A stretch of DNA of 64,000 bases from Eledone cirrhosa (taxonomy: Eukaryota). The number at the start of each line of letters is the position of its first letter. Position 1 is the first letter of the stretch. The notes under the pieces were generated by a model. The model did no database searches and had not been told where the DNA came from. It saw nothing but the letters and a program-made list of their open reading frames with translations. Positions 60,741 to 64,000 of the stretch are shown here, piece after piece. Made by a program: the position numbers and the translations under genes. The stretch covers positions 1 to 64,000 of the forward strand of contig CAXHJY010000419.1 in assembly GCA_964016885.1 (NCBI GenBank), given 5' to 3'.

Positions 60741-62447
60741 TAAATTGAAACAAAATGAAAACGAAATTTCATTTCTCACTCTTAGTATGGCACTTACTTA
60801 AATGTAAGTATGCATGTATACGTACATACATATATGTATACAGACGTACAGTAGCATGCACATATATATATATATACATATATACATACATATGCATACA
60901 GGTACACATACATATATGCACGTATCAGTTTAGCGGCGCTAACGTCGCTTTGTTCGTTTGTAAACAAACTGAACAGCCTGAATTTATGCCATACGGTGTT
61001 AAGGCAACCACGTCACCTTTTTGTTCAACACTGACACAGGAACGATGTACTAGTTTCAAGCTTGTTAGCTATCATCAGCACCGTTTACCCATCTGCCAGA
61101 TAGTTGAACGGTCGAAAGTATATACTTTCCTTATGAAAATTAACGGCTGAGCAGCCTAATTTGCATATTGAGTGAGTTAAATCGGTCAGGCATACCGAAA
61201 ACGATAAATTGAAACAAAATGAAAACGAAATTTCATTTCTCACTCTTAGTATGGCACTTACTTAAATGTAAGTATGCATGTATACGTACATACATATATG
61301 TATACAGACGTACAGTAGCATGCACATATATATATATATATACATATATACATACATATGCATACAGGTACACATACATATATGCACGTATCAGTTTAGC
61401 GGCGCTAACGTCGCTTTGTTCGTTTGTAAACAAACTGAACAGCCTGAATTTATGCCATACGGTGTTAAGGCAACCACGTCACCTTTTTGTTCAACACTGA
61501 CACAGGAACGATGTACTAGTTTCAAGCTTGTTAGCTATCATCAGCACCGTTTACCCATCTGCCAGATAGTTGAACGGTCGAAAGTATATACTTTCCTTAT
61601 GAAAATTAACGGCTGAGCAGCCTAATTTGCATATTGAGTGAGTTAAATCGGTCAGGCATACCGAAAACGATAAATTGAAACAAAATGAAAACGAAATTTC
61701 ATTTCTCACTCTTAGTATGGCACTTACTTAAATGTAAGTATGCATGTATACGTACATACATATATGTATACAGACGTACAGTAGCATGCACATATATATA
61801 TATATATATACATATATACATACATATGCATACAGGTACACATACATATATGCACGTATCAGTTTAGCGGCGCTAACGTCGCTTTGTTCGTTTGTAAACA
61901 AACTGAACAGCCTGAATTTATGCCATACGGTGTTAAGGCAACCACGTCACCTTTTTGTTCAACACTGACACAGGAACGATGTACTAGTTTCAAGCTTGTT
62001 AGCTATCATCAGCACCGTTTACCCCATCTGCCAGATAGTTGAACGGTCGAAAGTATATACTTTCCTTATGAAAATTAACGGCTGAGCAGCCTAATTTGCA
62101 TATTGAGTGAGTTAAATCGGTCAGGCATACCGAAAACGATAAATTGAAACAAAATGAAAACGAAATTTCATTTCTCACTCTTAGTATGGCACTTACTTAA
62201 ATGTAAGTATGCATGTATACGTACATACATATATGTATACAGACGTACAGTAGCATGCACATATATATATATATATACATATATACATACATATGCATAC
62301 AGGTACACATACATATATGCACGTATCAGTTTAGCGGCGCTAACGTCGCTTTGTTCGTTTGTAAACAAACTGAACAGCCTGAATTTATGCCATACGGTGT
62401 TAAGGCAACCACGTCACCTTTTTGTTCAACACTGACACAGGAACGAT
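60740..62447 (-). repeat. about 3.7 x 464-469-bp tandem array, each full monomer with a minus-strand hammerhead ribozyme
   Basis: unit starts at 60740, 61204, 61670 and 62139; ribozymes at 61041-61085, 61507-61551 and 61975-62019. Confidence 0.95.
61041..61085 (-). ncRNA. type I hammerhead ribozyme (first of 3 complete copies), predicted cleavage between 61048 and 61047
   Basis: minus strand AACGGTG-CTGATGA-TAGCT(AACA)AGCTT-GAAA-CTAG-TA-CATCGTT; 7-bp stem I, palindromic stem III ACTAGT. Confidence 0.85.
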
Positions 62448-64000
62448 ATATACATATATATATATATACACACATATATATATATATACACACATATAAT
62501 ATATATATACACACATATATATATATATACACACATATATATATATACACACATATATATATATATATACACACATATATATATATATATATATATACAC
62601 ACATATATATATATATATACACACATATATATATATATATACACACATATATATATATATATACACACATATATATATATATATATACACACATATATAT
62701 ATATATATACACACATATATATATATATATACACACATATATATATATATATACACACATATATATATATATATACACACATAATATATATATATATATA
62801 TACACACATATATATATATATATATATATATATACACACATATATATATATATATATATATATACACACATATATATATATATATATATATATATATATA
62901 TATATATATATATATATATATATACTATAATATATATAATATATATATATATATATATATATATATATATATATACATATATATATATATACAACATATA
63001 ATATATATATACACATATATATACACATATATATATATATATATATATATACACATATATATATATATATATATATACACACATTATATATATATATATA
63101 CACACATATATATATATATATATATACACACATATATATATAATATATATACACAATATATATATATATATATATACACATATATATATATATATATATA
63201 CACACATATATATATATATATATACACATATATATATATATATATATACACATATATATATATATATACACATATATAATATATATATACACATATATAT
63301 ATATATATATATATACACATATATATATATATATACACATATATATATATATATATACACATATATATATATATATATATATACACATATATATATATAA
63401 ATACACATATATATATATATATATATATACAAATATATATATATATACACATATATATATATATATACACATATATATATATATACACATATATATATAT
63501 ATATACACATATATATATATATATATATACACATATATATACACATATATATATATATATACACATATATATATATATATATATACACATATATATATAT
63601 ATATATATACACATATATATATATATATATATATACACATATATATATATATATATATATACACATATATATATATATATATATACACATATATATATAT
63701 ATATATATACACATATATATATATATATATATACACATATATATATATATATATATACACATATATATATATATATATATATACACACATATATATATAT
63801 ATATATATACACATATATATATATATACACATATATATATATATATATACACATATATATATATATATATATATACACATATATATATATATATATATAT
63901 ATATACACATATATATATATATATATATATACACATATATATACATAATATATATATATATATATATATATATATACACATATATATATATACACATATA
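62448..64000. repeat. compound (TA)n(CA)m microsatellite to window end
   Basis: direct inspection. Confidence 0.97.

What the first reader, a model, noticed from the sequence alone, without database searches (positions are those of the whole stretch)
62400..62455. The 465-bp array terminates 1 nt from the predicted ribozyme cleavage site
Seen: full units read ...GGAACGATG|TACTAG on the plus strand, where | is the predicted cut. The terminal partial unit stops at ...GGAACGAT (62447) and runs into (AT)n. In RNA sense this is the 5' end of the array. The other end (60740) joins the TA tract through an AT microhomology. Inference: this is the footprint expected if a self-cleaved RNA was reverse-transcribed from a nick in (TA)n to its ribozyme-made 5' end. 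It is indirect evidence that the ribozyme works in vivo and that the multimer came through an RNA intermediate. A random end would fall this close only rarely in a 465-bp unit.
Basis: partly seen in the sequence, partly recalled or inferred. Interest (0 to 1): 0.85.

Follow-up and report, generated by a model that had tools for sequence, protein, structure and literature searches.

The report
Retrozyme inserted Penelope-style; ribozyme end coincidental
This array does stop one base from its predicted ribozyme cut, but only about 1 in 100 copies of this very abundant repeat family do so, which is near chance; what the copies share is two fixed positions at the opposite end, used one each in head-to-head pairs, which likely marks them as inserted by a Penelope-like retrotransposon from uncut RNA.

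Summary
The 466-bp array (60740-62447, minus strand) carries three type I hammerheads and ends at unit position 2 (1 = first base after the cut), joined to (AT)n through a shared AT. The genome holds about 16,000 units. In 145 mapped arms, 5' ends are scattered; 4 lie at the cut (about 1.6 expected). In a genome-wide junction search, the block an exact run-off would fill holds 15 of 65 junctions against 14, 13 and 12 in the next blocks. The excess sits at AT/TA microhomologies. Roughly 100 arms genome-wide look like this one. A small ribozyme share is not excluded: about 0.5% of arms at the cut, up to about 3% with trimming. The other end is the informative one. 3' ends cluster at two sites about 59 nt apart (about 251 and 310), and head-to-head pairs are one long plus one short arm in 45 of 45 classifiable cases. 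This is the Penelope-like 'tail' signature. The element is a non-LTR retrozyme, likely copied from uncleaved multimeric or circular RNA by an unidentified Penelope-like partner.

The parts
60740..62447 (-). Array of 3.7 units of a 466-bp non-coding hammerhead repeat (non-LTR retrozyme); a solo 'long' arm running from unit position 2 to position 310
   Evidence: GC 36.5%, longest ATG frame on the RNA strand 48 aa
61043..61083 (-). Type I hammerhead motif, copy 1; predicted cut between 61048 and 61047
   Evidence: core scan; sequence
61509..61549 (-). Type I hammerhead motif, copy 2; predicted cut between 61514 and 61513; minimal palindromic stem III (ACUAGU)
   Evidence: Rfam HH9 18.5 bits, below the gathering score of 52
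61977..62017 (-). Type I hammerhead motif, copy 3; predicted cut between 61982 and 61981
62440..62455 (-). 5' junction: element ends at unit position 2 and joins (AT)n through a shared AT; read as ordinary 5' truncation with microhomology
60738..60745 (-). 3' junction at unit position 310 (TTCAAT|TTAT), the family's fixed 'long' end; inferred reverse-transcription start
   Evidence: 55 of 145 arms end at exactly 310 and 74 at 296-310
60740..60798 (-). 59-nt 'tail' (unit positions 252-310), present on long arms and absent from short arms; the short end (about 247-251) lies in the loop of a predicted hairpin ACUUAC-AUUUAA-GUAAGU
60134..60742 (.). (TA)n-type tract at the 3' end; inferred target
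62446..64000 (.). (TA)n-type tract at the 5' end; continues to about base 65800 of the contig

Best explanation
The array is one copy of an abundant 466-bp hammerhead repeat family whose 3' ends are fixed at two sites and whose 5' ends are scattered; it was likely inserted into (TA)n by a Penelope-like retrotransposon's enzymes working on uncut RNA, and its 5' end next to the predicted cut is likely a chance truncation joined through a shared AT. Proposed steps: (1) a multimeric or circular transcript with intact ribozyme sites is bound by a Penelope-like RT/GIY-YIG protein (inferred); (2) the enzyme cuts AT-rich DNA, mostly (TA)n (target shown, cutting inferred); (3) reverse transcription starts inside the unit at about 310 or about 251 (fixed ends shown; their reading as start sites follows PMC11167929); (4) when both target strands are extended, one arm carries the long end and the other the short end (pairing shown, mechanism inferred); (5) each cDNA stops at a variable point and is joined to the target or to the other arm through short microhomology (scatter and microhomology shown).
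For: 5' ends: 4 of 145 arms at positions 464..3, about 1.6 expected in the two sampled sets, P=0.08. 100 of 261 rows listed, hand-classed: 65 junctions and 35 internal variants; the exact-cut block holds 15 against 14, 13 and 12 (P=0.25). 100 of 1061 rows listed, 38 counted: 11 in the 4 positions at the cut against 27 in the 7 positions just 3' of it (P=0.87). Direct (AT)n joins at position 2 number 11 among 16,070 anchors, close to at least 6 among 9,882 at a control TA site. 3' ends: 74 long, 49 short, 22 other of 145 arms; 110 of 145 abut TA-rich DNA. Pairs: 34 long+short, 0 long+long, 0 short+short, 12 unclassifiable of 46 (P about 1e-11 under independence); 45, 0, 0 and 15 of 60 in the enlarged set. 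Partner arms carry the same variant: within the closest 10% in 33 of 39 pairs. Read-through of at least one intact cut site in 104 of 145 arms, up to 15 in one arm. One copy in a unique target has a 9-bp target duplication. Literature: tail, inverted 5'-truncated arm and microsatellite bias in PMC8557442 (passages); two internal start sites, and unprocessed RNA as the dominant substrate, in PMC11167929 (main text parts 1-2 of 4).
Against: A mild excess near the cut exists: 26 of 65 junctions in the 4 positions at the cut, 18.6 expected, P=0.03. TA-abutting ends in the 30 nt upstream of position 2 are 1.5 times the two control windows (59/7801 against 45/9152, P=0.03; confounded by subfamily mix). 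Junction density at positions 3-9 is about 2.7 times that at 464-455 (interval 1.5-4.6, two different anchors). The autonomous partner was not found: 20 loci of the most abundant GIY-YIG family showed no terminal repeat like the unit. The tail is 59 nt, longer than the 30-40 bp in PMC8557442. Shared variants between arms could come from later gene conversion. Junction calls were made by hand from partial listings drawn mostly from the first two contigs, and a few loci are later duplications of each other.
Confidence: 0.8

Rival explanations
1. A small minority of templates are ribozyme-cleaved; their cDNAs run off at the cut and lose 0-9 nt on joining, and this array is one of them.
For: Excess of about 40-55 arms at the cut and about 170-240 at positions 3-9, out of roughly 9,000-17,000 arms. 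Run-off plus loss of one base plus AT microhomology predicts exactly this junction.
Against: No peak at the exact cut. The excess at the cut is in TA-type partners (12 in 4 positions against 11 in 10) and not in other partners (14 against 28; P=0.30). No enrichment for single-unit arms (23 of 33). This array would need three uncut sites and one cut site. Even if the whole local excess were ribozyme-made, under half of the arms ending here (about 45 of 113) would be of that kind.
Confidence: 0.15
2. The step in 5'-end density across the cut comes from reverse transcriptase stalling in the long stem I helix (positions about 3-22 paired with about 405-435), not from cleavage.
For: Folding predicts an extended helix over this stretch (z = -2.2 for 61490-61575). 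Density is higher at positions 3-9 than at the cut itself.
Against: Only a prediction; counts are small and come from two anchors.
Confidence: 0.3
3. The arrays are satellite DNA spread and trimmed by DNA-level recombination inside (TA)n tracts, with no RNA step.
For: Both window ends lie in TA tracts. Period-2 and period-3 variant patterns in some arrays fit unequal crossing over.
Against: Polarity (fixed 3' ends, scattered 5' ends), strict long+short pairing in inverted pairs, dispersal over many contigs and a target duplication are not expected from recombination alone.
Confidence: 0.04
4. The junction is an assembly artefact at the edge of a long (AT)n tract in a small contig.
For: The window lies on a 66-kb contig and the flank is about 3.3 kb of TA repeat. 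No raw read was laid across it.
Against: The same junction class is at 11 other loci, and the array's 3' end matches the family's fixed end exactly.
Confidence: 0.04

Closest known systems
Metazoan non-LTR retrozymes (PMC7229834; bioRxiv 10.64898/2026.07.22.740005)
   Same: Non-coding, low-GC tandem repeat of a few hundred bp with a type I hammerhead in every unit; dispersed as monomers to multimers; proposed to be moved by Penelope-like elements.
   Different: In the parts I read, those papers argue for Penelope-like mobilisation from shared ribozyme type, co-occurrence and terminal-repeat phylogeny, and call the mechanism open. Here the insertion ends themselves show it: two fixed 3' ends and long+short inverted pairs. 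Expression and circular RNA were not tested here.
Penelope-like elements with a GIY-YIG endonuclease, e.g. Poseidon of the green anole (PMC11167929) and the structures summarised in PMC8557442
   Same: 5' truncation, adjacent inverted 5'-truncated copy, a tail on one end, AT-rich or microsatellite targets, 3' ends internal to the repeat and downstream of a hammerhead, uncleaved RNA as template.
   Different: No protein-coding frame; tail of 59 nt instead of 30-40 bp; up to 15 units per arm; no autonomous partner identified.
R2-type retrotransposons whose 5' end is set by a self-cleaving ribozyme (recalled, from no call)
   Different: Here 5' ends do not pile up at the cut, and most arms read through intact cut sites.

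Membership tests
Type I hammerhead ribozyme | Core CUGANGA, GAAA and NUH cut site in type I order, with stems I and II | tested here: met
   CUGAUGA, GAAAC, GUA; stem I CGGUG/CAUCG; stem II AGCU/AGCU
Type I hammerhead ribozyme | Short palindromic helix III typical of metazoan motifs that work as dimers | tested here: met
   ACUAGU; feature described in PMC4209133 passages
Type I hammerhead ribozyme | Rfam family match at gathering score | tested here: inconclusive
   HH9 at 18.5-18.9 bits against 52, E 0.5-0.7
Type I hammerhead ribozyme | Self-cleavage at GUA | not testable with these tools
   No assay; the end mapping gives no clear in vivo footprint
Non-LTR retrozyme | Tandem units of 150-1000 nt, low GC, non-coding, a hammerhead in each full unit | tested here: met
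   466 nt, GC 36.5%, longest ATG frame on the RNA strand 48 aa
Non-LTR retrozyme | Dispersed high copy number, monomers to multimers | tested here: met
   16,070 exact matches of an 18-mer; 0-15 cut sites per arm
Non-LTR retrozyme | Expressed as linear and circular RNA | not testable with these tools
   No RNA holder listed; no evidence either way
Penelope-type insertion | Variable 5' truncation | tested here: met
   5' ends spread over the whole unit in 145 arms
Penelope-type insertion | Inverted 5'-truncated copy adjacent at the 5' end | tested here: met
   46 head-to-head pairs among 145 arms; the window's own arm is solo
Penelope-type insertion | Tail on one end, i.e. two fixed 3' ends | tested here: met
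   About 251 and about 310; 45 of 45 classifiable pairs long+short; 59 nt against 30-40 bp in PMC8557442
Penelope-type insertion | AT-rich or microsatellite target | tested here: met
   110 of 145 3' ends abut TA-rich DNA
Non-autonomous partner of a named Penelope-like family | Sequence likeness to the terminal repeat of an autonomous element in the same genome | tested here: inconclusive
   Only one abundant GIY-YIG family examined, 20 loci; no such likeness
Autonomous Penelope-like element | RT plus GIY-YIG reading frame | tested here: not met
   No such frame in the array
Retroelement with ribozyme-defined 5' end (R2-like model, recalled) | 5' ends of copies pile up at the ribozyme cut | tested here: not met
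   4 of 145 arms; no peak in the junction searches

The most novel reading that the evidence does not exclude
This family is a genomic record of how animal retrozymes move: a two-headed Penelope-type complex primes both target strands from one long and one short start site on uncleaved multimeric RNA from one source, so the hammerhead plays no part in setting the ends of the insertion. With thousands of copies, the family would let the circle-versus-linear-multimer template question and the partner's identity be tested directly from the genome.
Probability: 0.55. Interest if true: 0.62.

Novelty: new member of a known kind. Interest (0 to 1): 0.4.

Why it matters
The finding as written would have been indirect evidence that a genomic hammerhead cuts in vivo and sets a retroelement's end; the genome-wide count removes that. 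What remains bears on an open point. Animal retrozymes are proposed to ride on Penelope-like elements (PMC7229834 Discussion; bioRxiv 10.64898/2026.07.22.740005 calls the mechanism unresolved). Here their insertion ends carry the Penelope tail and inversion signature, with a strict one-long, one-short pairing. I did not find such end mapping for a retrozyme in four literature searches; subscription papers and supplements were not seen. The read-through of intact cut sites agrees with the in vitro result that uncut RNA is the main substrate (PMC11167929).

Tried and rejected
Rfam scan: only sub-threshold HH9 hits plus microRNA-family matches to AT repeats, treated as noise. First BLAST mapping was swamped by the unit's internal TA repeat and was redone with filters. 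Cross-anchor comparison of TA-abutting ends is confounded by subfamily mix and was given little weight. Sequencing runs: no RNA holder listed; laying four runs gave 0 reads in two raw runs, 0 contigs in one run and only short contigs in the fourth, so no test of the junction or of end pile-ups. Partner search: GIY-YIG fragments lie beside several copies, but the family is very abundant (60,294 candidates) and showed no terminal repeat like the unit in 20 loci, so adjacency was not taken as partnership. Two loci where both facing arms start at the cut were checked: one is a later duplication with its flanks, and the other has one arm of only 75 bp; neither counts as two independent run-offs. 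Circle versus linear multimer could not be settled: many arrays have private variants in every unit (fits a circle or a uniform source), while two inverted pairs share single-unit variants between arms (fits a mixed multimer, or later conversion). Earlier notes of this scan: none for this genome.

Full report
Observation. The sequence is as described. An array of 3.7 units spans 60740-62447. On the minus strand each full unit carries a type I hammerhead motif, CGGUG-CUGAUGA-AGCU/AGCU-GAAAC-UA-GUA|CAUCG, with predicted cuts after plus positions 61047, 61513 and 61981. I number the 466-nt unit in RNA sense from the first base after the cut. The array then runs from position 2 to position 310. 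The 5' end joins (AT)n through a shared AT, and the 3' end through a shared TAT. Rfam gives only sub-threshold HH9 matches; cleavage is a prediction.

Copy number. The window is the first 64 kb of a 66-kb contig in a 3.0-Gb genome. An 18-mer just after the cut has 16,070 exact matches.

5' ends in mapped arms. I fetched three sets of loci: 6 top-scoring loci, 40 stretches anchored near the 3' end and 40 anchored just after the cut. These gave 152 arms; 7 were dropped (5 from a diverged family, 2 under 40 bp), leaving 145. Their 5' ends cover the whole unit, with a pile-up only in the unit's internal TA repeat, where the end is ambiguous. Four lie at positions 464..3: 0 of 10, 0 of 66 and 4 of 69. 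About 1.6 are expected in the two sampled sets (P=0.08).

5' ends genome-wide. A pattern that keeps only copies diverging upstream of position 2 gave 261 matches, of which 100 were listed. By hand, 35 are internal variants and 65 are junctions. By element letters kept beyond position 2 (k=0 to 13) the counts are 11, 1, 5, 9, 5, 4, 5, 0, 5, 4, 4, 1, 4, 7. A clean run-off at the cut would show as k=1-3: 15 junctions, against 14, 13 and 12 in the following blocks (P=0.25). A second pattern anchored at 12-25 gave 1061 matches, 100 listed; rows with k=0-2 were left out because other families match there, and internal variants were left out. Of 38 counted junctions, 11 fall in the 4 positions at the cut and 27 in positions 3-9. 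Direct joins to (AT)n at position 2 occur at 11 loci and at GTA at 8 loci among 16,070 anchors. A control TA site has at least 6 among 9,882 anchors under a stricter rule (100 of 136 rows listed), and five other sites have 3 each among 8,799 (all 86 rows listed). Scaled up, about 100-135 arms in the genome end at the cut, roughly 1% of all arms.

Results against this reading. k=0-3 holds 26 of 65 against 18.6 expected (P=0.03). The excess is in TA-type partners (12 in 4 positions, 11 in 10) and not in others (14 and 28), as microhomology predicts; but a run-off that loses one base predicts the same junction. Density at positions 3-9 is about 2.7 times that at 464-455 (interval 1.5-4.6, two anchors). 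This allows a ribozyme share of about 0.5% of arms at the cut, or up to about 3% with trimming. Stalling in the predicted long stem I helix explains the step equally well. Of 33 arms ending at the cut, from 32 loci fetched for that reason, 23 are single partial units; the null is 61-86%, so cleaved monomers are not enriched.

The 3' ends carry the signal. Of 145 arms, 74 end at 296-310 (55 at exactly 310), 49 at 236-255 (34 at exactly 251) and 22 elsewhere; 110 abut TA-rich DNA. Many insertions are two arms joined head to head. Of 46 such pairs, 34 are long+short, none long+long or short+short, and 12 have an unclassifiable end (P about 1e-11 under independence). With later loci added the tally is 45, 0, 0 and 15 of 60. 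The two arms carry the same sequence variant: the partner is in the closest 10% of arms in 33 of 39 pairs. 104 of 145 arms read through at least one intact cut site, one arm through 15. One copy that landed in a unique target has a 9-bp target duplication; most flanks are microsatellite and cannot show one.

Mechanism. Shown: polarity, two fixed 3' ends, strict pairing, TA targets, microhomology joins, read-through of cut sites. Inferred: an RNA template, a Penelope-type RT and GIY-YIG nuclease, and priming on both strands from two start sites. PMC11167929 (main text parts 1-2 of 4 read) shows in vitro that a Poseidon element cuts both strands of AT-rich DNA, starts at two internal sites that define the genomic tail, is predicted to be a dimer, and uses unprocessed RNA. 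PMC8557442 (passages) lists 5' truncation, an adjacent inverted copy, a 30-40 bp tail on one end and microsatellite bias, and attributes the tail to nuclease resolution instead; my data do not separate these two origins of the tail. The window's array is a solo long arm. A circular template has no 5' end and a linear one here would need three uncut sites and one cut site, so chance truncation is the simpler reading of 62447.

Template form. Many arrays have private variants in every unit; two inverted pairs share single-unit variants between arms, in one case in the same order. The first fits a circle or a uniform source array; the second fits a mixed multimer or later conversion. Not settled.

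Relation to known systems. The element meets the sequence definition of a non-LTR retrozyme (PMC7229834, passages and Discussion; bioRxiv 10.64898/2026.07.22.740005, parts 1-3 of 5); expression was not testable. It works like a non-autonomous Penelope-like element, but the partner is not identified. PMC4209133 (passages) describes the short palindromic helix III and low in vitro activity of such motifs. End mapping for a retrozyme was not found; supplements of these papers were not read and may hold such data.

Verdict. Observation confirmed; the ribozyme-footprint inference is not supported; the element is a new member of a known kind whose insertion anatomy gives direct genomic support for Penelope-type mobilisation. 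Interest 0.4.

Noticed in passing
window 58263-60141 (+): A second hammerhead repeat, 311 bp, 6.0 units, predicted cuts after 58441, 58752, 59063, 59374, 59685, 60002. Both ends lie in the unit's internal AT repeat, about 170-180 nt upstream of the first cut and 130-140 nt after the last, so not at the cut. In one inverted pair elsewhere (L113) the arms end about 31 nt apart, again a long and a short end. It faces the 466-bp array tail to tail across one TA tract.
   Followed up: partly
window 54875-54990 (-): A third, very short hammerhead element with a full 4-bp stem III (ACAG/CUGU) and GUA cut. Relatives occur in many fetched loci, often as inverted pairs with one longer and one shorter 3' end.
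   Followed up: partly
L056:2752-3621, L091:4300-7000, L109:450-1880, L123: A very abundant GIY-YIG-bearing Penelope-like family (60,294 candidates; clade label Hydra-like is recalled, not tested), with open frames up to about 800 aa. In L056 and L109 a fragment is fused directly to a retrozyme arm on the same strand; in L091 a retrozyme sits inside it with a 9-bp target duplication.
   Followed up: partly
G000:C1:69.58 Mb (L142+L143) and G000:C10:53.27 Mb (L032+L033): Inverted pairs whose two arms share single-unit variants; in the first pair two variants recur in the same order with a three-unit period over six units.
   Followed up: partly
rows: Many units carry small deletions in the palindromic stem III next to the cut (for example five tandem units at C1:184.45 Mb), i.e. 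arrays with a likely dead ribozyme core.
   Followed up: no
window 61380-61700: Near-identical sequence is held by 20 public runs from 15 studies under many organism labels; contamination, mixed samples or related species were not told apart.
   Followed up: no
window 1-10597: 27-bp tandem repeat, about 392 copies, 96% alike.
   Followed up: no
window 38668-41823: 77-bp tandem repeat, 41 copies, 97% alike.
   Followed up: no
window 22636-24432 and 46518-47321 (+): Open frames that look like fragments of a LINE-type reverse transcriptase (family resemblance recalled, not scanned).
   Followed up: no
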